Positions 2,950-13,763 of a stretch of DNA of 13,763 bases are shown in pieces; position 1 is the stretch's first letter; the number at the start of each line of letters is the position of its first letter. The notes under the pieces are model-generated. The model saw only the letters and a list, made by a program, of their open reading frames with translations. It was not told where the DNA came from and ran no database searches. The position numbers and the translations under genes are program-made. Source of the DNA: a virus (lineage: Duplodnaviria; Heunggongvirae; Uroviricota; Caudoviricetes); IMG/VR virus record IMGVR_UViG_2537562217_000016; one strand, given 5' to 3'.

Positions 2950-3306
2950 TCAGCCTGCGATTTTTCCTGGTTTTGGCTGAGTATAGAATCGCCCAATCTC
3001 AAGAAATGAGCGTTGTTGGTCTGGTGTCATGTCGTCAAAAGTATCTATTAGTTTTTGTTTTTCTGGGGAAATTTGATTCTGGTTTCTAGTCATACCATCT
3101 GTGCTCATTCCAGTGAGCAACCAATTTACATCAACATTAAACTCTTGATGCATCTTTAACAGAAACTCCCCTCCAGGCATCGCCTTTCCATTTTCAATCT
3201 GACTGATACCACCATTAGAAATACCTAAACGAGCTGCAAATTCTCTCTGGTTCAACCCTGCTTTCTTCCTCACAGAAATAACGCGCTCTCCTATATCTTT
3301 GCTCAT
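2950..3306 (-). CDS. Phage repressor, XRE/Cro-CI family HTH
   Basis: HTH_3 signature LNQREFAARLGISNGGISQIENGKAMP near the N-terminus; divergent from the early operon; operator half-site overlaps its start codon. Confidence 0.8.
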   Translation of the reverse strand: MSKDIGERVISVRKKAGLNQREFAARLGISNGGISQIENGKAMPGGEFLLKMHQEFNVDVNWLLTGMSTDGMTRNQNQISPEKQKLIDTFDDMTPDQQRSFLEIGRFYTQPKPGKIAG

Positions 3307-5212: not shown

Positions 5213-6982
5213 ATGACCCCGGCACTGACTGAAAAACTGGTTGAAACAGCCCGCGCGGCACGTGACGCGGGGCATGGTAAACGCGGTGCAATATACGACG
5301 CTGCCTGTGCTGAACTTGGCATGTCCCGCGCCACTCTGCTGCGCAGGCTGAAGGAGGTATCTGTGACTGATAAACGCAAAAAACGCGCCGATGCCGGGCG
5401 CAGCGCCCTGACCCGCGACGAAGCCGCGCTGATATCTGCCACACTGCGTGAGGCCACCCGCAAGAACGGTAAGCGTCTCTATTCCATCGCAGATGCAGTG
5501 GAAACCCTGCGGGCTAACGGCTTTATCACCGCAGGCAGAACAGATGAAACCACCGGTGAGTTTTTCCCGTTGTCTGAAGATGCCATCAGCCGTGCTCTGC
5601 GTAACTATGGCCTGCACCCGGAACAACTGGATGCCCCTGCACCACATACCGAAGTGGCCAGTCTGCATCCCAATCATGTCTGGCAGATTGACGCCTCACT
5701 CTGCACGCTTTACTACCTGAGCAATGGACATAAAGGGCTGCAGGTGATGGACAGCGCGAAGTTCTACAAGAACAAGCCCGCTAACCTTGCCCGTATCGCC
5801 AGTGACCGCGTGTGGAGTTACGAGATTACCGACCATGCCAGCGGCTGGATTTACGTTGAGTATGTGACGGGCGCGGAATCAGGTGAGAACCTGTGTTCTG
5901 TGCTTATCAACGCCATGCAGGAGCGTGGCGGCGCAGACGTGCTGCACGGCGTGCCGAAAATACTCTATCTCGACCCCGGCTCGGCAAACACCGCGGGTAT
6001 GACGAAAAACATGTGCCGCTCACTGGGCATCGACCTGATAGCGCACAAGCCGCATAACGCCCGCGCCACCGGACAGGTGGAAAAGGCGCGTGACATTATC
6101 GAACGCAAGCTGGAGCCGGGTCTGAAGTTCCGGCCGGTTCACAGTCTGGAAGAACTCAACGCGCTGGCCGCGAAATGGCGCAGCCACTTTAACGCCACGG
6201 CTGTTCACAGCCGCCACGGTAAAACCCGCACGGATATCTGGCTGAAGATTACTGCTGAGCAGCTGAAAAAAGCGCCTTCCGTTGAGGTATGTCGTGAACT
6301 GGCTGTGGCGGCACCAGAACTCCGCAAAGTCACGCCAAAACTTCGTGTCTCGTTCCGGGGCACTGAATTTGACGTATCAACGGTACCGGGCGTACTGGTT
6401 GGTGAAAAACTGATGATTACCCGTAACCCATGGCGCAGCGATGTGGCACAGGTGGTTCTGACCGGTGAGGACGGCCACGAGACGTTCTTCCTGGTCGAAG
6501 AGGTCAGAAAGAACAAGTTTGGCTTTGCTGAAGGCGCGGCGGTATTTGGCGAAAGTTACAAAGCCCTGCCGGAAACCCCGGCACAGATGGCGGCAAAAGA
6601 AACCGAAGCGCTGGTTACCGGTACAGACAACGCCGCAGATGCAGCCGCCGCACGCAAGGCGAAGGCGCTGCCGTTCGGCGGGCGGCTTGACCCGTATAAA
6701 CATATCGACGACACCACACTTCCGGCCTATATGCCGAAGCGTGGTCAGGCCTCTGACGTACGCGGGCCGCGCACTGAACAACGTCCCATGACTCATGTGG
6801 AGGCCGCGAAAGCCCTGCGCGATAAGTTCAGCGCCGACGGCCTTACCTGGACGCCGGAACATTACCGCCAGTTAACGGCACAGTACCCGGACGGCGTACC
6901 GGAAGCCGCACTGGATGAAGTCATGGCCACGCTGACCACACCGGCCCGCAGCAGTGTTATCAGCATTGTTAACGGCAACTGA
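5213..6982 (+). CDS. DDE transposase of transposable phage (TnsB/Tn552/TniA-type DD(35)E core; MuA analogue)
   Basis: Catalytic triad read from the translation: D160 (HVWQIDAS, codon 5690..5692), D254 (ILYLDPGS, 5972..5974), E290 (ATGQVEKAR, 6080..6082), i.e. D-93-D-35-E. Basic N-terminal DNA-binding region. Position between ner and the ATPase. Confidence 0.85.
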   Translation: MTPALTEKLVETARAARDAGHGKRGAIYDAACAELGMSRATLLRRLKEVSVTDKRKKRADAGRSALTRDEAALISATLREATRKNGKRLYSIADAVETLRANGFITAGRTDETTGEFFPLSEDAISRALRNYGLHPEQLDAPAPHTEVASLHPNHVWQIDASLCTLYYLSNGHKGLQVMDSAKFYKNKPANLARIASDRVWSYEITDHASGWIYVEYVTGAESGENLCSVLINAMQERGGADVLHGVPKILYLDPGSANTAGMTKNMCRSLGIDLIAHKPHNARATGQVEKARDIIERKLEPGLKFRPVHSLEELNALAAKWRSHFNATAVHSRHGKTRTDIWLKITAEQLKKAPSVEVCRELAVAAPELRKVTPKLRVSFRGTEFDVSTVPGVLVGEKLMITRNPWRSDVAQVVLTGEDGHETFFLVEEVRKNKFGFAEGAAVFGESYKALPETPAQMAAKETEALVTGTDNAADAAAARKAKALPFGGRLDPYKHIDDTTLPAYMPKRGQASDVRGPRTEQRPMTHVEAAKALRDKFSADGLTWTPEHYRQLTAQYPDGVPEAALDEVMATLTTPARSSVISIVNGN

Positions 6983-6992
6983 GGAGGGAAAC

Positions 6993-8159
6993 ATGCTGGT
7001 ACTGAAGCAGCAACTGAAAGAGGCCCGTATTCCACAGGCGGTGGTGGCGAGAGCTGTCGATGTTTCTGAGGCCACGCTGGCCCAGATTGTGAATCATAAC
7101 GCGTGGCCCCGCACCAGCCCCGGAGAAGTGCGCCGGCGTCTTGCGTCCTGGCTGGAAAGTCAGGGGATTGATACAACGAAGAGTTTTGATGCTGTACAGG
7201 GCGCGGCCACGCCCCGTACAGCGGGTACCACAGATAAAACGAGCCTCAGTGAGGAAGAGAATATGTTACTCAAAAAACAGGTGTTATTTCCAGCAACCAA
7301 AAAAGCGTTTGGTCTTTTCCGTGACCCGTTCGCCGACGAAGCCATGCAGGGTTCTGATGATGTGTTCACCACCCCGGATATTCGCTACGTGCGTGAGGCG
7401 TTGTACCAGACAGCCCGTCATGGTGGGTTTATGGCCGTCATCGGTGAGTCCGGTGCGGGTAAATCCACGCTGCGCCGCGACCTGACTGAACGTATCAACC
7501 GCGAGAATGCGCCGGTAATTGTTATCGAGCCATACATCATCGCTATGGAAGACAACGATGTGAAAGGGAAAACCCTGAAGGCAGCAGCGATTGCCGAAGC
7601 CATTATCAGTACCATCGCACCACTGGAAAGCATCAGACGCAGTCAGGACGCCCGCTTTCGCCAGTTGCATCGCGTCCTGAAAGACAGCAGCCAGGCGGGG
7701 TTCAGCCACGTTCTGGTGATTGAGGAGGCCCACAGTCTGCCCATTCCGACACTGAAACACCTCAAACGCTTTTTTGAGCTGGAGTCCGGTTTCAAAAAAC
7801 TGCTGTCCATCGTGCTGATTGGCCAGCCGGAACTGGCGACAAAACTGTCTGAACGCAATATGGAAGTCCGTGAAGTCGTTCAGCGCTGTGAGGTGGTCGA
7901 ACTTCTGCCTCTGGACAATAACCTTGAAGAGTTTCTGACGTTCAAACTGCAACGGGCCGGTAAACAACTGACGGACATTATGGACGCCAGCGCAGTGGAT
8001 GCCATACGTGCCCGCCTGAGCAATCCGGGAAGTCATCGTAAAAATATGGTCAGCCTGCTGTATCCGCTGGCCGTCAGTAACCTGGTAATAGCCGCCATGA
8101 ATCTGGCCGCTGAAATCGGGGTTCCACAGGTCAACGCTGACGTTGTCAAAGGGGTTTAA
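6993..8159 (+). CDS. Transposition-associated AAA+ ATPase (MuB/TniB/TnsC analogue) with N-terminal HTH extension
   Basis: RBS GAGGAGGG 6981..6988, ATG 6993, 10 nt after the transposase stop. Walker A GESGAGKST (~7441..7470), Walker B HVLVIEEAH; N-terminal HTH-like ARAVDVSEATLAQIVNHN. Confidence 0.8.
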   Translation: MLVLKQQLKEARIPQAVVARAVDVSEATLAQIVNHNAWPRTSPGEVRRRLASWLESQGIDTTKSFDAVQGAATPRTAGTTDKTSLSEEENMLLKKQVLFPATKKAFGLFRDPFADEAMQGSDDVFTTPDIRYVREALYQTARHGGFMAVIGESGAGKSTLRRDLTERINRENAPVIVIEPYIIAMEDNDVKGKTLKAAAIAEAIISTIAPLESIRRSQDARFRQLHRVLKDSSQAGFSHVLVIEEAHSLPIPTLKHLKRFFELESGFKKLLSIVLIGQPELATKLSERNMEVREVVQRCEVVELLPLDNNLEEFLTFKLQRAGKQLTDIMDASAVDAIRARLSNPGSHRKNMVSLLYPLAVSNLVIAAMNLAAEIGVPQVNADVVKGV

Positions 8160-8161
8160 TA

Positions 8162-8431
8162 ATGAAATCCACCACAGGTATCAACCAGCAAATCAGCAAA
8201 GTGCAGTCAGCCATTATGGCGCTTAAGGCGACGAACACGGATGTACAAAGCATCACCATCAGGGGTAACAAACCTGTCATCCGCGTTTCCCGGAGTGCGC
8301 ATTGCATGCGCATGCTTGAGCAGGGAAAGGCCTGTTATCTGTATACCGGTCATGACCACAGGGGACATTTCCGTCAGGGCGTTTTCGAACTGCACGGCTG
8401 TCGCGTCGTGTGGCCGGAATCTTTGTGGTAA
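8162..8431 (+). CDS. Hypothetical protein (89 aa) in the position of Mu kil
   Basis: ATG 2 nt after the ATPase stop; Cys/His-rich C-terminal half (HCMRM...CYLYTGHDHRGH...HGC). Function unknown. Confidence 0.5.
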   Translation: MKSTTGINQQISKVQSAIMALKATNTDVQSITIRGNKPVIRVSRSAHCMRMLEQGKACYLYTGHDHRGHFRQGVFELHGCRVVWPESLW

Positions 8432-8458
8432 TCAGCACAACAGGAGGAGTCATAAAAT

Positions 8459-8989
8459 ATGGCAAAAAGTACAAAAGGGGCAAAACGTATCAAAGCCGCA
8501 GCAGCACTCTGGGTGCCGGGGACACGCGAAGAGGTCATTGAGGGAATCAGACTGCTTGGTGACGCGCAACGTGAACTGGTCAGGGCTGAAACAGAAATGA
8601 ATGACACCATTGGCGACATCACTGCACGTTATGCCCCGCTCACCGAGAGCCTGAAAAAACGCATGGCCGAACTGCAGTCCGGTATCCAGACATGGTGTGA
8701 GGCGCACCGTGATGAACTGACCGGCAACGGGAAGGTGAAGTTCGCTAACCTCACCACCGGCGAGGTGCAGTGGCGAAACCGTCCGCCGTCAGTCAGCATT
8801 CGCGGGGCGGATAATGTCATTGAACTGCTGAGACGTCTGGGGCTTGAGCGCTTTATTCGTGTAAAGGAGGAAATAAATAAAGATGCCATTCTGAATGAAA
8901 AAGAGGCTGTGAAAAATATTCCCGGTATTACCATAAAAAGTGATATTGAGGATTTTTCAATAATTCCTTTTGAGCAGGATGTGCAGTAA
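8459..8989 (+). CDS. gam: Host-nuclease inhibitor protein Gam (Mu Gam family)
   Basis: RBS AGGAGG 8442..8447. Extended colinear similarity to phage Mu Gam as recalled: RIKAAAA, ETEMND, WCEAHRDELTGNGKVKFANLTTGEVQWRNRPPSVSIRG, LGLERFIRVKEEINKDAIL, GITIKSDIEDFSIIPFEQ. Confidence 0.9.
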   Translation: MAKSTKGAKRIKAAAALWVPGTREEVIEGIRLLGDAQRELVRAETEMNDTIGDITARYAPLTESLKKRMAELQSGIQTWCEAHRDELTGNGKVKFANLTTGEVQWRNRPPSVSIRGADNVIELLRRLGLERFIRVKEEINKDAILNEKEAVKNIPGITIKSDIEDFSIIPFEQDVQ

Positions 8990-9086
8990 ACACACCACGT
9001 TAATTATTTAATAAAAACATTTTCTTTTTTATTCCGGCGTCAGCGCCGCGGGCTTCTGCACGCCGGAAACAGAGGAGAATTAAATT

Positions 9087-9281
9087 ATGATATTTAAATG
9101 TATTCAGTGCGAGAGGGATATAACAGCCCTGCGTTTTCACAGCGCCATCGCCGTGATGTCCGGTAAGTATCACATACCTGCAGTACGTGTCACCCTGGTC
9201 TGCCCGTACTGCAGCCAGCATTTTTCGGCGGACGTGCCCGTCATGGAATTCTCCCGCCCTGACAGGGAGGACGCGCAATGA
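9087..9281 (+). CDS. Small zinc-ribbon protein (64 aa; CxxC ... CxxC)
   Basis: RBS GAGGAG 9073..9078, ATG 9087. Cys pairs KCIQCE and VCPYCS. Confidence 0.5.
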   Translation: MIFKCIQCERDITALRFHSAIAVMSGKYHIPAVRVTLVCPYCSQHFSADVPVMEFSRPDREDAQ

Positions 9282-9550
9282 TTACCCCACAGGAAGCACG
9301 ACAGCGCACCCGAACTCTTGTTGAACACTATGTCAACGAGTGTGAATGCCGCGACCTCACCGATGTGAAGCACGTCCTGACGGCGCTAATCAGCATGGCC
9401 ACACAGGCCATTGTGGCGACCAACGGAAAGGAGGCTGCCCTGCAGGTACTGATGAACACACTCACCCACACGGCAGAGCATGAGGTGCCGTACCGGATGG
9501 AAACCACTGCAGAAGGCGGCCTGCACATCACCGTCAGCCGGAAGCACTGA
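9278..9550 (+). CDS. Hypothetical protein (90 aa)
   Basis: ATGA start/stop overlap with the upstream ORF (translational coupling); no recognisable motif. Confidence 0.45.
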   Translation: MITPQEARQRTRTLVEHYVNECECRDLTDVKHVLTALISMATQAIVATNGKEAALQVLMNTLTHTAEHEVPYRMETTAEGGLHITVSRKH

Positions 9551-9559
9551 GGGCGCGGC

Positions 9560-9856
9560 ATGACACGAAACACCGAACTCACCCGCACCGCCCTCTACCG
9601 TCTGGCCCTGCAGCGTTTCGGGCCGGACGCACAGGCCCTGAAACTGGCAGAAGAGGCCGCTGAACTGGCGGCCAGTGCCGCCCGCAACCTGAACGGACAG
9701 GGCAGCGAAAGTGACCTCGCGGCAGAGCTGGCAGACGTGGAAATCATGACAGAGCAACTGCGCCTTCAGGGGATGGACCGGCTGATTGACTTCCACAAAC
9801 AGAAAAAACTGGAACGTCTGGCTGCACGACTGGGCGTGATTTACACGAACGAGTAA
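9560..9856 (+). CDS. Putative MazG-like all-alpha NTP pyrophosphohydrolase-domain protein (98 aa)
   Basis: Acidic helix motifs LAEEAAELAASAA and AAELADVEIMTEQL plus C-terminal KQKKLERL resemble the EExxE/ExxD metal-binding helices of small phage MazG-like proteins. Assignment is from motifs only. Confidence 0.45.
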   Translation: MTRNTELTRTALYRLALQRFGPDAQALKLAEEAAELAASAARNLNGQGSESDLAAELADVEIMTEQLRLQGMDRLIDFHKQKKLERLAARLGVIYTNE

Positions 9857-9870
9857 CCGGGAGGCATTCA

Positions 9871-10086
9871 ATGGCTGACATACTCAGGGAAATCACCGCA
9901 TGGACACTGATTCTTACTGGCCTGGCGACATGCCTCAGTGCGGGGGCAGCCCTGGCTGCCCTGCTGATGCACATAACAACACAGTGGTTATGGGAAAAGC
10001 TTAAAGCAGCATACAGCCTGAAAGAGCTGTCCGACGCTGTCCGGGCATGGAAACGGCAGAAAAATACCGGAGATACAGAACAATGA
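9871..10086 (+). CDS. Small membrane protein (71 aa; one predicted TM helix)
   Basis: RBS GGGAGG 9857..9862, ATG 9871. Hydrophobic stretch WTLILTGLATCLSAGAALAALLM. Confidence 0.45.
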   Translation: MADILREITAWTLILTGLATCLSAGAALAALLMHITTQWLWEKLKAAYSLKELSDAVRAWKRQKNTGDTEQ

Positions 10087-10766
10087 CAGACCAGAATAAA
10101 CACATTGAGAAACTGAAAAAGTTGCTGGCGCTGGCCGCATCCGGCAACCCGCACGAGGCCGCTCTGGCACTGCGCCGAGCCCGTAAACTGATGGATGTTC
10201 ACGGCATCACACATTCCGACATTGCTATGAGTGATATTGATGAAACCATCAGTCACTACTGGCCGACAGGCAGTCTCCGTCCACCGCGCTACATGCTGGG
10301 CCTGATGAACATCATCCGCGAGGTATTTGGTGTTAACTCCATCATTCACCCCGGCACGCATCCGTCTGTGGGGTTCTACGGCAACCGGGAACGTGCGGCA
10401 CTGGCTGCATACACCTGGGAAGTGCTGGCCCGTCAGCTGAAAAAGGCGCGTCAGCAGTATATCAGTGCACAGAACAAAAGAATAAAAACCGCCACCCGCA
10501 CCAGCCGTGGAGACCAGTTTGCCGAAGGCTGGGTGCTGGCCGTTATCAGTGAAATACAGTCCTTTGCCCTGACCGATGATGAGCGTGAATTGATGCAGCA
10601 GTGGCTGGAACATAAATACCCGCAGACGCAAACCACCAGGGCGCGTAAACCGGGAAGAAGCCGCAATGGCGACGCCTCGCGCTATGCGGGGTTTCGTGAA
10701 GGGCAGAACGTCAGACTGCACCGCCCGGTCAGTGGGCAGGAACAACAGAAACTGGAGGCCAGATGA
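10083..10766 (+). CDS. DUF2786-like protein (227 aa)
   Basis: ATG 10083 overlaps the upstream stop (ATGA) and is preferred over the track start at 10047. N-terminal motif IEKLKKLLALAASGNPHEAALALRRARKLM resembles the DUF2786 signature as I recall it. Confidence 0.6.
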   Translation: MTDQNKHIEKLKKLLALAASGNPHEAALALRRARKLMDVHGITHSDIAMSDIDETISHYWPTGSLRPPRYMLGLMNIIREVFGVNSIIHPGTHPSVGFYGNRERAALAAYTWEVLARQLKKARQQYISAQNKRIKTATRTSRGDQFAEGWVLAVISEIQSFALTDDERELMQQWLEHKYPQTQTTRARKPGRSRNGDASRYAGFREGQNVRLHRPVSGQEQQKLEAR

Positions 10767-10993
10767 TTACGCTATCAGGTAAAAGCCGGAAATTAAAAGC
10801 CTGCCGAATATCTGCCAGATACCTTTTTGCCCGCGCCTTTTTTAAGAACGTCAGGCCGGGGATCACAATTGGTGTTATTGCCGGACGCGAACAGGTTGAA
10901 AAATACATGTCAGGTGCATGGTGGAATAACGACCCTGTCATTGCTGCCCGTAATATTCATATCGAATGGGGAGGTATTCAGAATGACTACTGA
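10763..10993 (+). CDS. Hypothetical protein (76 aa)
   Basis: ATGA overlap with the upstream ORF stop; no motif recognised. Confidence 0.4.
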   Translation: MITLSGKSRKLKACRISARYLFARAFFKNVRPGITIGVIAGREQVEKYMSGAWWNNDPVIAARNIHIEWGGIQNDY

Positions 10994-11190: not shown

Positions 11191-11388
11191 ATGCAGAAAA
11201 AACGCCTGATACAGCTTATCCATATTGCCCGTAATGAACTGGGTATGGATGAAGACACCTACCGCCAGATGTTACAGGGGCTGACCGGTAAAGCCTCAAC
11301 CAAAGGAATGGATACCACACAACTAAACTGCGTGCGTAAGCGTCGTCTCAGCACCGTCTGGCAGATCCTGAAATTCCTGAGAGAATAG
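11191..11388 (+). pseudogene. GemA/gp16-like (DUF1018) gene truncated by IS66-family insertion; only ~48 native codons (11191..~11335) remain
   Basis: RBS AGGAG 11181..11185, ATG 11191. N-terminal LIQLIHIARNELGMDEDTYRQMLQGLTGKASTKGM matches the conserved start of Mu gp16/GemA-like proteins as I recall it. The reading frame runs into the IS end at ~11336 and stops at 11386..11388. Confidence 0.55.
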
Positions 11389-11416
11389 TGGACACCAAAT
11401 ATGGTGGACGCTATTC

Positions 11417-11821
11417 ATGAAATCATTAACCGCAGTGCGTAAAAAAAGCCCTAATTATCCCGTTGAGTTCAAAATCAAAATGGTGGAACTCTCGCATCGA
11501 CCAGAGATCTCCGTAGCGCAACTCGCTCGTGAGCATGGGATCAACGATAATTTGCTGTTCAAGTGGCGCCAGTACTGGCGCGAAGGAAAACTACGTCCTC
11601 CTTCAACAACAGAAAACAACGTGCCTGAGCTGCTCCCGATAACACTTGATGCCGAAGATGTTGTCCCTACAACCTCCCCCCGGTCACAACCTGTAGCTGC
11701 TGCGACACCTGAATCACTCAATATCAGCTGTGAAGTGACGTTCCGGCACGGATCACTCCGTCTGAATGGTGCCATCAGCGAAAATATCCTGAACCTGCTG
11801 ATACGGGAGCTCAAACGTTGA
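11417..11821 (+). CDS. tnpA: IS66-family accessory protein TnpA (orfA)
   Basis: 134 aa with HTH region ISVAQLAREHGINDNLLFKWRQYW; first ORF of the IS66 module. Confidence 0.85.
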   Translation: MKSLTAVRKKSPNYPVEFKIKMVELSHRPEISVAQLAREHGINDNLLFKWRQYWREGKLRPPSTTENNVPELLPITLDAEDVVPTTSPRSQPVAAATPESLNISCEVTFRHGSLRLNGAISENILNLLIRELKR

Positions 11822-12165
11822 TCCCATTACCATCAGGGACAAAGATCTGGCTGGTCGCTGGCATCACCGATATGAGAAACGGCTTCAACGGCCTGGCGGC
11901 AAAGGTGCAGACGACGCTGAAAGACGATCCGATGTCAGGTCACGTTTTTATCTTCCGTGGGCGTAATGGCAGTCAGGTAAAGCTCCTCTGGTCTACCGGC
12001 GATGGACTGTGTCTGCTGACCAAACGGCTGGAGCGCGGCCGCTTCGCCTGGCCGTCAGCCCGGGATGGCAAAGTGTTCCTCACACCGGCACAGCTGGCGA
12101 TGCTGCTGGAAGGTATCGACTGGCGGCAGCCTAAAAGACTACTTACGTCCCTGACTATGTTGTAA
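11818..12165 (+). CDS. tnpB: IS66-family TnpB (orfB)
   Basis: Highly characteristic IPLPSGTKIWLVAGITDMRNGFNGLAAKVQ... N-terminus; TTG start at 11818 overlaps the tnpA stop (11819..11821). Confidence 0.9.
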   Translation: MIPLPSGTKIWLVAGITDMRNGFNGLAAKVQTTLKDDPMSGHVFIFRGRNGSQVKLLWSTGDGLCLLTKRLERGRFAWPSARDGKVFLTPAQLAMLLEGIDWRQPKRLLTSLTML

Positions 12166-12213
12166 GCCTCTTTATCCTGGTCGACGCTGAATGAGCCTGG
12201 TAATATACCCGGT

Positions 12214-13751
12214 ATGAGCAGCTCACTTCCTGACGATATCAATGCACTGAAACGTCTCCTTGCCGAACAGGAGGCGCTGAACCGTGCCCTGCTGGAAAAG
12301 CTGAACGAGCGTGAACGCGAAATAGACCATCTGCAGGCACAGCTGGATAAGCTGCGCCGGATGAACTTCGGCAGCCGCTCGGAAAAAGTCTCCCGTCGTA
12401 TCGCACAGATGGAAGCTGACCTGAAGGCACTTCAGAAAGAAAGTGATACCCTTACCGGTCGGGTTGACGACCCGGCCGTGCAGCGCCCGCTGCGTCAAAC
12501 CCGCACCCGCAAACCGTTCCCCGAATCACTCCCCCGCGATGAAAAACGGCTGCTGCCGGCAGCGTCATGCTGCCCGGAATGTGGAGGCTCGCTGAGCTAT
12601 CTGGGTGAGGATGCCGCCGAACAGCTGGAGTTGATGCGCAGCGCCTTCCGGGTTATCCGGACTGTACGTGAAAAGCATGCCTGTACTCAGTGCGATGCCA
12701 TCGTGCAGGCCCCCGCGCCTTCACGGCCCATCGAGCGGGGTATCGCAGGACCGGGGCTGCTGGCCCGCGTGCTGATCTCAAAGTATGCAGAGCACACCCC
12801 GCTGTACCGCCAGTCTGAAATGTACGGCCGCCAGGGCGTGGAGCTGAGTCGTTCACTGCTGTCGGGCTGGGTGGATGCATGCTGCCGGCTACTGTCACCG
12901 CTGGAAGAAGCGCTTCAGGACTATGTGCTGACTGACGGTAAGCTCCATGCTGATGACACGCCTGTCCCGGTGCTGTTGCCAGGCAATAAGAAAACGAAGA
13001 CCGGGCGGTTATGGACCTACGTTCGTGACGACCGTAACGCCGGGTCAACGCTGGCGCCGGCGGTGTGGTTCGCTTACAGCCCGGACAGAAAAGGCATCCA
13101 TCCGCAGACCCATCTTGCGGGGTTCAGTGGTGTACTGCAGGCGGATGCATACGCCGGGTTCAACGAGCTGTACCGGGATGGCCGGATAACGGAAGCCGCC
13201 TGTTGGGCTCACGCCCGCCGTAAAATCCACGATGTGCACGTTCGCACCCCGTCAGCCCTGACGGAGGAAGCGCTGAACGGATCGGCGAACTGTACGCCAT
13301 CGAGGCAGAGATAAGGGGAATGACGGCGGAGCAGCGCCTTGCCGAACGTCAGTTGAAAACGAAACCGCTGCTGAAATCCCTGGAAAGCTGGCTGCGTGAA
13401 AAGATGAAAACCCTGTCGCGACACTCAGAACTGGCGAAAGCGTTCGCATACGCCCTGAACCAGTGGCTGGCGCTGACGTACTATGCAGATGATGGCTGGG
13501 CTGAGGCGGACAATAACATCGCTGAAAATGCGTTGCGGATGGTCAGTCTGGGCCGCAAAAACTACCTGTTCTTCGGTTCGGATCATGGAGGAGAGCGGGG
13601 AGCGCTGCTGTACAGCCTGATCGGGACGTGCAAACTGAACGGAGTGGAGCCAGAAAGCTACCTCCGCTATGTCCTTGACGTCATAGCCGACTGGCCGATA
13701 AACCGGGTCGGCGAACTGCTCCCCTGGCGCGTAGCACTGCCGACTGAATAA
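12214..13751 (+). pseudogene. tnpC: IS66-family transposase TnpC (orfC), interrupted by an apparent 1-nt frameshift near 13276..13278
   Basis: ORF 12214..13314 (366 aa; leucine-zipper-like N-terminus, CPECGG zinc-finger-like motif, DDE region) and ORF 13320..13751 (143 aa) are colinear in different frames. The downstream frame is already open from ~13260 (…[20 protein letters not shown]…), and the combined ~510 aa matches full-length TnpC. Confidence 0.8.
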
Positions 13752-13763
13752 CACATCCCCGTC

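What the first reader, a model, noticed from the sequence alone, without database searches (positions are those of the whole stretch)
9560..9856. Putative MazG-like NTP pyrophosphohydrolase in the early region
The 98-aa protein carries acidic helical motifs (EEAAELAASAA ... AAELADVEIM) and a C-terminal KQKKLERL tail that resemble the all-alpha MazG/HisE nucleotide pyrophosphohydrolase fold. Phage-encoded MazG-like enzymes hydrolyse nucleotide pools or alarmones, so an early-expressed copy is a plausible host-manipulation or anti-defence factor. Assignment is from motif pattern only.
Basis: inference. Interest (0 to 1): 0.45.

Follow-up and report, generated by a model that had tools for sequence, protein, structure and literature searches.

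The report
Small MazG-like nucleotide pyrophosphatase, Mu-like prophage
The 98-residue gene is real and very probably encodes a small MazG-type enzyme that splits nucleoside triphosphates, sitting in the early operon of a Mu-like E. coli prophage; public databases already label it this way, so it is ordinary, though its substrate is unknown.

Summary
The ORF at 9560-9856 (+) is there exactly as described. It is a real gene: dN/dS is 0.10-0.24, and it occurs in 621 of 5,426 complete E. coli genomes. The window is the early region of a BcepMu-like transposable prophage, 98.4 % identical to phage PhiKM.

The MazG-like reading is supported by independent tests:
- PHROG 2245 "NTP pyrophosphohydrolase", E = 5.5e-34.
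- The metal-binding motif E32-x-x-E35-x20-E56-x-x-D59 is kept in 249 of 253 distant relatives.
- 21 of 76 relatives hit Pfam MazG.
- hhalign against the solved, PF03819-carrying Bacillus MazG group gives 85 % probability, P = 6e-6, motifs in register.
- The best Foldseek PDB hits are all-alpha NTP pyrophosphatases, though none is statistically significant.

The protein belongs to a large clade (10,460 representatives at 50 % identity). That clade falls below Pfam's MazG and HisE thresholds, and I found no close characterised relative. It is not a HisE orthologue and is not detectably related to the anti-defence MazG-like enzyme Atd1.

RefSeq already names the identical protein (WP_001295929.1) "nucleoside triphosphate pyrophosphohydrolase family protein". 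Substrate and biological role remain inferred. Sanitising or shaping the dNTP pool is most likely; alarmone or anti-defence hydrolysis is possible. Low interest.

The parts
9560..9856 (+). CDS for a 98-aa all-alpha NTP pyrophosphohydrolase-like protein, identical to RefSeq WP_001295929.1. Predicted helices span residues 9-44 (conserved Gly21 followed by Pro22, a likely break) and 50-91 (relatives carry variable-length insertions around residues 70-72).
9549..9553 (+). Shine-Dalgarno-like GAGGG, 6 nt upstream of the ATG. It overlaps the TGA stop (9548-9550) of the upstream 90-aa ORF, giving tight operon packing.
   Evidence: read directly from the sequence
9650..9664 (+). Codons for E31-E32-A-A-E35, the first half of the metal-binding motif (EExxE).
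   Evidence: E31 100 %, E32 99 %, E35 99 % in 253 distant relatives. Aligned with EExGE of the Bacillus MazG group.
9725..9736 (+). Codons for E56-L-A-D59, the second half of the metal-binding motif (ExxD), 20 residues after E35.
   Evidence: E56 99 %, D59 100 %. Aligned with EELGD of the Bacillus MazG group.
9806..9820 (+). Codons for K83-L-E-R86-L87, a clade-specific conserved basic motif in the last helix. Inferred to contact the phosphates.
   Evidence: K83 98 %, R86 98 %, L87 99 %. The function is inference only.

Best explanation
The gene encodes a small enzyme of the all-alpha nucleoside-triphosphate pyrophosphohydrolase superfamily (MazG / HisE / DCTPP1 / dimeric dUTPase). By analogy with solved members, two or four copies would assemble so that the central helix pair presents E32, E35, E56 and D59, which hold Mg2+ ions. 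The enzyme would then cut the alpha-beta phosphoanhydride bond of a nucleoside triphosphate, giving the monophosphate and pyrophosphate. The gene is co-transcribed with the early operon of a BcepMu-like transposable prophage (transposase A, B, Gam ... GemA, Mor), so it should be made early in lytic growth and be silent in the lysogen. Its most likely job is to sanitise or shape the (d)NTP pool used during replicative transposition, for example by removing dUTP, dCTP or damaged dNTPs. What is shown: a real gene, superfamily membership, a conserved catalytic motif, and the operon position. What is inferred: catalysis itself, the oligomeric state, the substrate and the biological role. My confidence is about 0.8 for the enzyme class and only about 0.4 for the dNTP-pool role.
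For: Enzyme class:
- PHROG 2245 'nucleoside triphosphate pyrophosphohydrolase', E = 5.5e-34, over the whole protein.
- All four acidic residues are kept in 249 of 253 distant relatives, and K/R42 in 94 %.
- 21 of 76 diverse relatives hit Pfam MazG PF03819 (best 2.2e-5), 5 hit PRA-PH and 3 hit MazG-like PF12643.
- The family profile finds five solved all-alpha NTP-PPases: 5ie9 at E = 0.006, plus 2q73, 2gta, 2q5z and 1vmg.
- hhalign against an alignment of the PF03819-carrying Bacillus MazG group (5ie9) gives 85 % probability and P = 6.3e-6, with EExxE and ExxD in register.
- The AlphaFold model is all-helical (pLDDT 95). Its best Foldseek PDB matches are DCTPP1 (probability 0.97), iMazG, the HisE domain of HISN2, Bacillus MazG, YpjD, AF1178 and S-2L MazG-like.
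- BFVD matches reach TM 0.7-0.8 to viral proteins named NTP pyrophosphohydrolase.

Real gene, early operon:
- dN/dS is 0.10-0.24.
- Synteny A - B - Gam/DUF3164 - Zn-ribbon ORF - 90-aa ORF - this gene - DUF2786 - GemA - Mor holds in related prophages.

dNTP-related role:
- In independent viral lineages the family sits among DNA-metabolism genes: DNA methyltransferases, Holliday-junction resolvases, primase/helicases, RecT, ERCC4 nuclease, family-A polymerase and ThyX.
Against: - The window protein itself is below the curated thresholds: Pfam PRA-PH 15.5 bits against 21.3, TIGR03188 14.6 against 42.7, and no Pfam MazG hit even at E <= 1.
- None of the 120 best family hits carries a precomputed Pfam domain.
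- Foldseek E-values to solved structures are not significant (0.1-3; TM 0.4-0.5). The monomer model is an extended two-helix hairpin rather than a compact four-helix bundle.
- The PHROG and BFVD names are annotations, not experiments, and are probably not independent of each other.
- I found no close characterised relative, so no substrate can be transferred.
- The ThyX link comes from only two lineages.
- Mu-type phages use the host replisome, and no other nucleotide-metabolism gene was recognised in this early region.
Confidence: 0.8

Rival explanations
1. The fold and chemistry are the same, but the physiological substrate is a signalling nucleotide, either the alarmone (p)ppGpp or an immune second messenger. 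The protein would then be an early-expressed counter-defence or host-takeover factor that keeps the cell from shutting down or committing suicide, as reported for Atd1.
For: A phage MazG-like pyrophosphatase, Atd1 of Pectobacterium phage PcCB7V, was reported to hydrolyse ppGpp and to protect against TIR-STING and retron-TIR toxicity (bioRxiv 10.1101/2022.06.09.495361). The gene lies in the accessory part of the Mu-type early operon next to Gam, a host-nuclease inhibitor. In four independent viral lineages (L057, L061, L066, L080) family members lie next to DNA methyltransferases, which are often anti-restriction genes.
Against: The probable Atd1 (QQG33500.1) is not detectably related beyond the motif: hhalign P = 0.13, BLASTP E = 0.25. 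No nucleotidyltransferase or other recognised anti-defence gene is annotated next to the gene here, and PADLOC finds nothing. A cyanophage MazG long thought to degrade ppGpp does not do so (PMC6850273, title). Most neighbours in other viruses are replication or recombination genes.
Confidence: 0.15
2. It is a phosphoribosyl-ATP pyrophosphohydrolase (HisE), an auxiliary histidine-biosynthesis enzyme.
For: The only direct Pfam and NCBIfam hits of the window protein are to PRA-PH (E = 0.023) and TIGR03188 hisE (E = 0.029). The HisE domain of plant HISN2 is among the Foldseek hits.
Against: Both hits are far below the curated cut-offs (15.5 against 21.3 bits; 14.6 against 42.7 bits). Relatives hit MazG four times more often than PRA-PH (21 against 5 of 76). 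No histidine-pathway gene was seen among the annotated neighbours.
Confidence: 0.02
3. It is a non-catalytic helical protein, for example a regulator or binding partner, that only resembles MazG by helical, acidic composition.
For: The best profile hit in the PDB is a non-enzyme helical domain (3zta, E = 6e-4), and several designed helical bundles also appear. Foldseek E-values to real NTP-PPases are not significant.
Against: Four specific acidic residues, at exactly the spacing of the metal-binding motif, are kept in 249 of 253 distant relatives together with a conserved basic residue. hhalign aligns them in register with canonical MazG. Such position-specific conservation is not expected from composition alone.
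Confidence: 0.04

Closest known systems
Bacillus-conserved MazG (PDB 5ie9; Pfam PF03819), a single-domain nucleotide pyrophosphohydrolase of about 100-120 aa
   Same: It is a similar-sized single all-helical domain. EExxE...ExxD aligns in register. It is the best solved enzyme match by profile (E = 0.006) and by hhalign (85 %, P = 6e-6).
   Different: Only the central 44 columns align. The window protein does not reach the Pfam MazG threshold. It has a shorter inter-motif loop (20 residues) and clade-specific conserved residues (G21, Q25, I62-M63, Q66, K83-x-x-R86-L87).
PHROG 2245 and the RefSeq 'nucleoside triphosphate pyrophosphohydrolase family protein' WP_001295929.1
   Same: The RefSeq protein is encoded by DNA 100 % identical to the window gene. 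The PHROG hit is E = 5.5e-34 over residues 1-97.
   Different: These are computational labels. I found no characterised member. The PHROG profile is 218 positions long and the protein matches only positions 113-211.
Human DCTPP1 (7mu5) and integron iMazG (2q5z), dCTP-preferring house-cleaning all-alpha NTP-PPases
   Same: They are the top Foldseek matches (probability 0.97 and 0.82, 21-24 % identity over about 100 columns).
   Different: E-values are 0.1-0.25, TM is about 0.4-0.5 and rmsd is 7-8.5 Angstrom. Substrate-binding residues cannot be compared with these tools.
Atd1, the MazG-like anti-TIR-defence pyrophosphatase of Pectobacterium phage PcCB7V (probably QQG33500.1, 86 aa)
   Same: It is a small phage-encoded protein with an EExxE...ExxD motif. 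It offers a precedent for the anti-defence idea.
   Different: There is no significant similarity (hhalign P = 0.13; BLASTP E = 0.25). The spacing between motifs is shorter, and it sits near a nucleotidyltransferase in a lytic Vequintavirinae genome. My identification of QQG33500.1 as Atd1 is an inference from its annotation and position.

Membership tests
All-alpha NTP pyrophosphohydrolase superfamily (MazG / HisE / DCTPP1 / dimeric dUTPase) | Metal-binding motif E-x-x-E-x(12-28)-E-x-x-D on two adjacent helices | tested here: met
   The motif here is E32-x-x-E35-x20-E56-x-x-D59. All four residues are acidic in 249 of 253 distant relatives.
All-alpha NTP pyrophosphohydrolase superfamily (MazG / HisE / DCTPP1 / dimeric dUTPase) | Statistically supported sequence or profile link to bona fide members | tested here: met
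   hhalign of A3 against the PF03819-carrying Bacillus MazG alignment gives 85 % probability, P = 6.3e-6. 21 of 76 relatives hit PF03819. The profile hits 5ie9 at E = 0.006, plus four other solved NTP-PPases more weakly.
All-alpha NTP pyrophosphohydrolase superfamily (MazG / HisE / DCTPP1 / dimeric dUTPase) | Compact all-helical (four-helix) fold that superposes on solved members | tested here: inconclusive
All-alpha NTP pyrophosphohydrolase superfamily (MazG / HisE / DCTPP1 / dimeric dUTPase) | Dimer or tetramer that forms the active sites | not testable with these tools
   No multimer prediction was available.
All-alpha NTP pyrophosphohydrolase superfamily (MazG / HisE / DCTPP1 / dimeric dUTPase) | Mg2+-dependent hydrolysis of NTP to NMP and PPi | not testable with these tools
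   This needs a biochemical assay.
Pfam MazG (PF03819) in the strict sense | Score at or above the Pfam gathering threshold | tested here: not met
   The window protein has no PF03819 hit even at E <= 1. The 120 best family hits carry no precomputed Pfam domain.
HisE / PRA-PH (PF01503, TIGR03188) | Score at or above the curated threshold | tested here: not met
   PF01503 scores 15.5 bits against 21.3. TIGR03188 scores 14.6 bits against 42.7.
HisE / PRA-PH (PF01503, TIGR03188) | Association with histidine-biosynthesis genes | tested here: not met
   The annotated neighbours are phage early, replication or packaging genes.
PHROG 2245 (phage NTP pyrophosphohydrolase) | Significant match to the family profile | tested here: met
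   E = 5.5e-34, 118.9 bits, residues 1-97.
Atd1-type anti-defence MazG-like pyrophosphatase | Detectable homology to Atd1 | tested here: not met
   hhalign P = 0.13 and BLASTP E = 0.25 against the probable Atd1, QQG33500.1.
Atd1-type anti-defence MazG-like pyrophosphatase | (p)ppGpp hydrolysis and protection from TIR effectors | not testable with these tools
   This needs experiments.
Dimeric dUTPase (Pfam dUTPase_2) | Match to the family profile | tested here: not met
   The family is not among the Pfam hits at E <= 1.

The most novel reading that the evidence does not exclude
This clade has 10,460 representatives at 50 % identity, falls below the Pfam thresholds, has no characterised member that I found, and carries its own conserved residues (Q25, Q66, K83, R86). 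It could have a substrate of its own, such as an alarmone, an immune signalling nucleotide or a defence-made chain-terminator nucleotide. That would make it a widespread phage counter-defence enzyme expressed from the accessory early region of Mu-like phages.
Probability: 0.12. Interest if true: 0.55.

Novelty: already known. Interest (0 to 1): 0.2.

Why it matters
As it stands, this confirms an annotation that the newest RefSeq records and PHROGs already carry, so it adds little. There is modest value in three points. First, it shows that the label rests on real evidence: motif conservation and profile links, not just the name. Second, it identifies the protein as part of a very large phage-associated clade that Pfam does not capture and for which I found no characterised member. 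Third, Mu-like transposable phages, which use the host replisome, nevertheless keep a nucleotide-hydrolysing enzyme under purifying selection in their early operon. If a substrate were determined, that would tell us whether this is pool sanitation or interference with host signalling.

Tried and rejected
- A direct sequence search of the PDB with the single protein gave nothing meaningful, and the shallow family profile gave only E = 0.69 to 5ie9.
- The first structure model, built on 19 close homologues, was poor (pLDDT 71). I replaced it with a model from 76 diverse sequences.
- tblastn with the family consensus found nothing, probably because of low-complexity masking. I repeated it with a real family member.
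- My first conservation count was out of register because of hmmalign --trim. I redid it correctly.
- The N-terminal 'fusion' with the zinc-ribbon ORF (P0036, P0026) is rejected as an artefact. It comes from long-read assemblies in which the transposase is also fragmented.
- The ThyX neighbourhood (10 of 42 loci) looked like a functional clue but collapses to two lineages.
- Homology to Atd1 was tested and not found.
- The defence-system reading is rejected: no PADLOC hit, and the gene lies in an operon expected to be repressed in the lysogen.
- HisE orthology is rejected on thresholds and context.

Full report
**1. What the window is**

The window is the early (left-to-right reading) region of a BcepMu-like transposable prophage of E. 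coli. Bases 8100-10800 are 98.4 % identical to Escherichia phage PhiKM (PQ738613, genus Bcepmuvirus). Read on the + strand, the ORF list and family scans give the following layout:
- a DNA adenine methylase (1979-2833)
- a divergent repressor-like gene (2950-3306, minus strand)
- small regulators
- a DDE transposase (5213-6982)
- a MuB/ExeA-like ATPase (6954-8159)
- an 89-aa ORF
- Gam (8459-8989; Pfam Phage_Mu_Gam, 1.1e-40)
- a zinc-ribbon ORF (9087-9281)
- a 90-aa ORF (9278-9550)
- the target (9560-9856)
- a 71-aa ORF with a hydrophobic stretch (9871-10086)
- a DUF2786/DUF7168 protein

In intact relatives, two small ORFs, GemA and Mor follow.

**2. The observation**

- GAGGG lies 6 nt upstream of the ATG and overlaps the stop codon of the preceding gene.
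- PhiKM and RefSeq annotate the same 297-nt CDS.
- Against homologues at 69-93 % amino-acid identity, substitutions pile up at third codon positions (for example 14/13/43 by codon position), and dN/dS is 0.10-0.24. The + frame is therefore under purifying selection, and the long antisense ORFs are by-products of 60 % G+C.
- The DNA occurs in 621 of 5,426 complete E. coli genomes, always chromosomal.

**3. What it is**

Direct scans:
- PHROGs gives a strong hit to phrog_2245, "nucleoside triphosphate pyrophosphohydrolase" (E = 5.5e-34), plus weak hits to two other NTP-PPase/MazG-like PHROGs.
- Pfam and NCBIfam give only sub-threshold hits: PRA-PH at 15.5 bits (cut-off 21.3) and TIGR03188 hisE at 14.6 bits (cut-off 42.7).

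Size of the family:
- Close homologues (46) are confined to enterobacterial Mu-like prophages and are mostly called hypothetical.
- An exhaustive profile search finds 10,460 representatives at E <= 1e-3 and 1,949 at E <= 1e-10. Most listed hits are about 90-110 aa.
- The 120 best hits of a wider profile carry no precomputed Pfam domain, so Pfam does not capture this clade at threshold.

Independent links to bona fide enzymes:
- (a) Of 76 diverse members scanned singly, 21 hit Pfam MazG (best 2.2e-5), 5 hit PRA-PH and 3 hit MazG-like PF12643.
- (b) The 76-sequence profile hits five solved all-alpha NTP pyrophosphohydrolases: 5ie9 (E = 0.006), 2q73, 2gta, 2q5z and 1vmg. EExxE and ExxD are in register in the printed 5ie9 alignment.
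- (c) I rebuilt an alignment of the Bacillus MazG group (the 5ie9 sequence; all members carry PF03819). hhalign against the family profile gave 85 % probability and P = 6.3e-6 over the central helix pair, again in register.
- (d) An AlphaFold model built on the 76-sequence alignment is confident (pLDDT 95, pTM 0.80) and all-helical. Its best Foldseek PDB matches are DCTPP1 (probability 0.97), iMazG, the HisE domain of HISN2, Bacillus MazG, YpjD, AF1178 and the S-2L MazG-like enzyme.

Weaknesses of the structural evidence:
- The Foldseek E-values (0.1-3) and TM-scores (0.4-0.5) are not significant.
- The likely reason is that the isolated monomer is modelled as an extended two-helix hairpin (helices 9-44 and 50-91) rather than a folded-back four-helix unit. 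The conserved Gly21, the Pro22 that follows it here, and the variable-length insertions that relatives carry near residues 70-72 suggest that real breaks exist at those points.
- BFVD matches are significant (E down to 1e-4, TM 0.7-0.8) to viral proteins named NTP pyrophosphohydrolase. Those names are annotations and are probably not independent of PHROGs.

**4. Catalytic residues**

I aligned 253 distant relatives to the family HMM.
- E31 is kept in 100 %, E32 in 99 %, E35 in 99 %, E56 in 99 % and D59 in 100 %.
- All four canonical positions (32, 35, 56, 59) are acidic in 249 of 253.
- The spacing, E-x-x-E-x20-E-x-x-D, falls in the 12-28 range that I recall as defining the superfamily motif (my own knowledge of the family literature, not checked here).
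- A basic residue at position 42 (K 81 %, R 13 %) follows the first motif, as in the aligned Bacillus sequence.
- The clade also has its own near-invariant residues: A16, G21, Q25, A58, I62, M63, Q66 and K83-x-x-R86-L87.
It is conserved, but it lies outside the segment that aligns with canonical MazG, so it is a feature of the clade, not of MazG.

**5. Context and function**

- Related Mu-like prophages keep the same gene order: A - B - 89-aa ORF - Gam or DUF3164 - Zn-ribbon ORF - 90-aa ORF - this gene - DUF2786/DUF7168 - small ORF - GemA - Mor. Early expression is inferred from this operon position and was not measured.
- Family members also occur in very different viruses, including Halobacterium phage phiH, Clostridium phages and Xanthomonas phage BUDD.
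- The 42 more distant viral contigs I analysed fall into 24 lineages. The nearest sizeable neighbours include DNA methyltransferases (4 lineages), Holliday-junction resolvases (2), primase/helicases (3), RecT, an ERCC4 nuclease, family-A DNA polymerase, ThyX, and in two cases the terminase just downstream. The family thus typically sits among, or at the edge of, replication and recombination genes.
- The ThyX link looked striking (10 loci) but comes from only two lineages.
- This context favours a DNA-precursor role, although only weakly.
- No PADLOC defence model matches the gene or its neighbours.

**6. The anti-defence idea**

- There is a precedent. Atd1, a MazG-like pyrophosphatase of Pectobacterium phage PcCB7V, was reported to hydrolyse ppGpp and to protect against TIR-STING and retron-TIR toxicity (bioRxiv 10.1101/2022.06.09.495361).
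- I located the probable Atd1 in MW367417. It is QQG33500.1, 86 aa, annotated "phosphoribosyl-ATP pyrophosphatase", and lies two genes from a nucleotidyltransferase.
- It has EEVEEL...EMSD, but shows no significant similarity to the window protein or its family (hhalign P = 0.13; BLASTP E = 0.25). Atd1's specificity therefore cannot be transferred.
- Conversely, a cyanophage MazG once assumed to degrade ppGpp does not (PMC6850273, title).
- The anti-defence or alarmone reading remains possible but has no positive support here.

**7. Verdict**

- The protein is not a HisE orthologue and not a member of Pfam MazG in the strict sense. It is a member of a large, uncurated, phage-associated clade of the all-alpha NTP-PPase superfamily.
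- The identical protein is already in RefSeq as WP_001295929.1, "nucleoside triphosphate pyrophosphohydrolase family protein", and in PHROGs. As an annotation this is already known, and interest is low.
- Substrate, oligomeric state and the reason a Mu-like phage keeps this enzyme are open and need the experiments listed under next steps.

Noticed in passing
window 11191-13763: Identity to phage PhiKM stops at about 11335, and the sequence continues with GTAAGCG..., which looks like an IS66-family end (recognised from memory). An IS66-family element (ORFs 11417-11821, 11818-12165, 12214-13314 and 13320-13751) is therefore inserted into the GemA-like gene, leaving a truncated 65-aa ORF (11191-11388). 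The large IS66 transposase appears split into two ORFs in different frames.
   Followed up: partly
window 9087-9281: A 64-aa ORF with two CxxC pairs (zinc-ribbon-like) matches PHROG 3401 (1.2e-40) and is annotated on the + strand in RefSeq. The PhiKM GenBank record instead annotates an ORF on the opposite strand at this place.
   Followed up: partly
L002 6001-6510 (proteins P0012, P0029, P0031): In some related Mu-like prophages the MazG-like protein is 169 aa. It carries a roughly 70-residue C-terminal extension of unknown function, which occupies the slot where this window has a separate 71-aa hydrophobic ORF (9871-10086). The extension is not similar to that ORF.
   Followed up: partly
L005 and L006 4001-4501 (proteins P0036, P0026): Apparent fusions of the zinc-ribbon ORF to the MazG-like protein occur in long-read assemblies where the transposase and ATPase genes are also fragmented. 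They are most likely frameshift artefacts, not real fusions.
   Followed up: yes
family profile A3 against the PDB: The best profile hit among solved structures is not an enzyme. It is the helical N-terminal domain of a STAS-domain protein (3zta, E = 6e-4), aligned over an 'EIAD...IM..Q'-like stretch. It is probably a compositional coincidence, but I did not explain it.
   Followed up: no
window 10047-10766: The DUF2786/DUF7168 gene is listed from ATG 10047. Both public annotations give a 684-nt CDS, which corresponds to a start at 10083 overlapping the stop of the preceding 71-aa ORF (ATGA).
   Followed up: partly
L057, L061, L066, L080 (viral contigs): In four independent viral lineages, members of this NTP-PPase clade lie directly next to DNA methyltransferase genes. 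This window also carries a Dam-type methylase (1979-2833), but about 7 kb away.
   Followed up: partly
model m381f751ef3c5 (window 9560-9856): AlphaFold models the monomer, with high confidence, as two long helices rather than a compact four-helix bundle. BFVD models of viral relatives look the same (TM about 0.8). This may mean the bundle forms only on oligomerisation, or it may be a limitation of monomer modelling.
   Followed up: no
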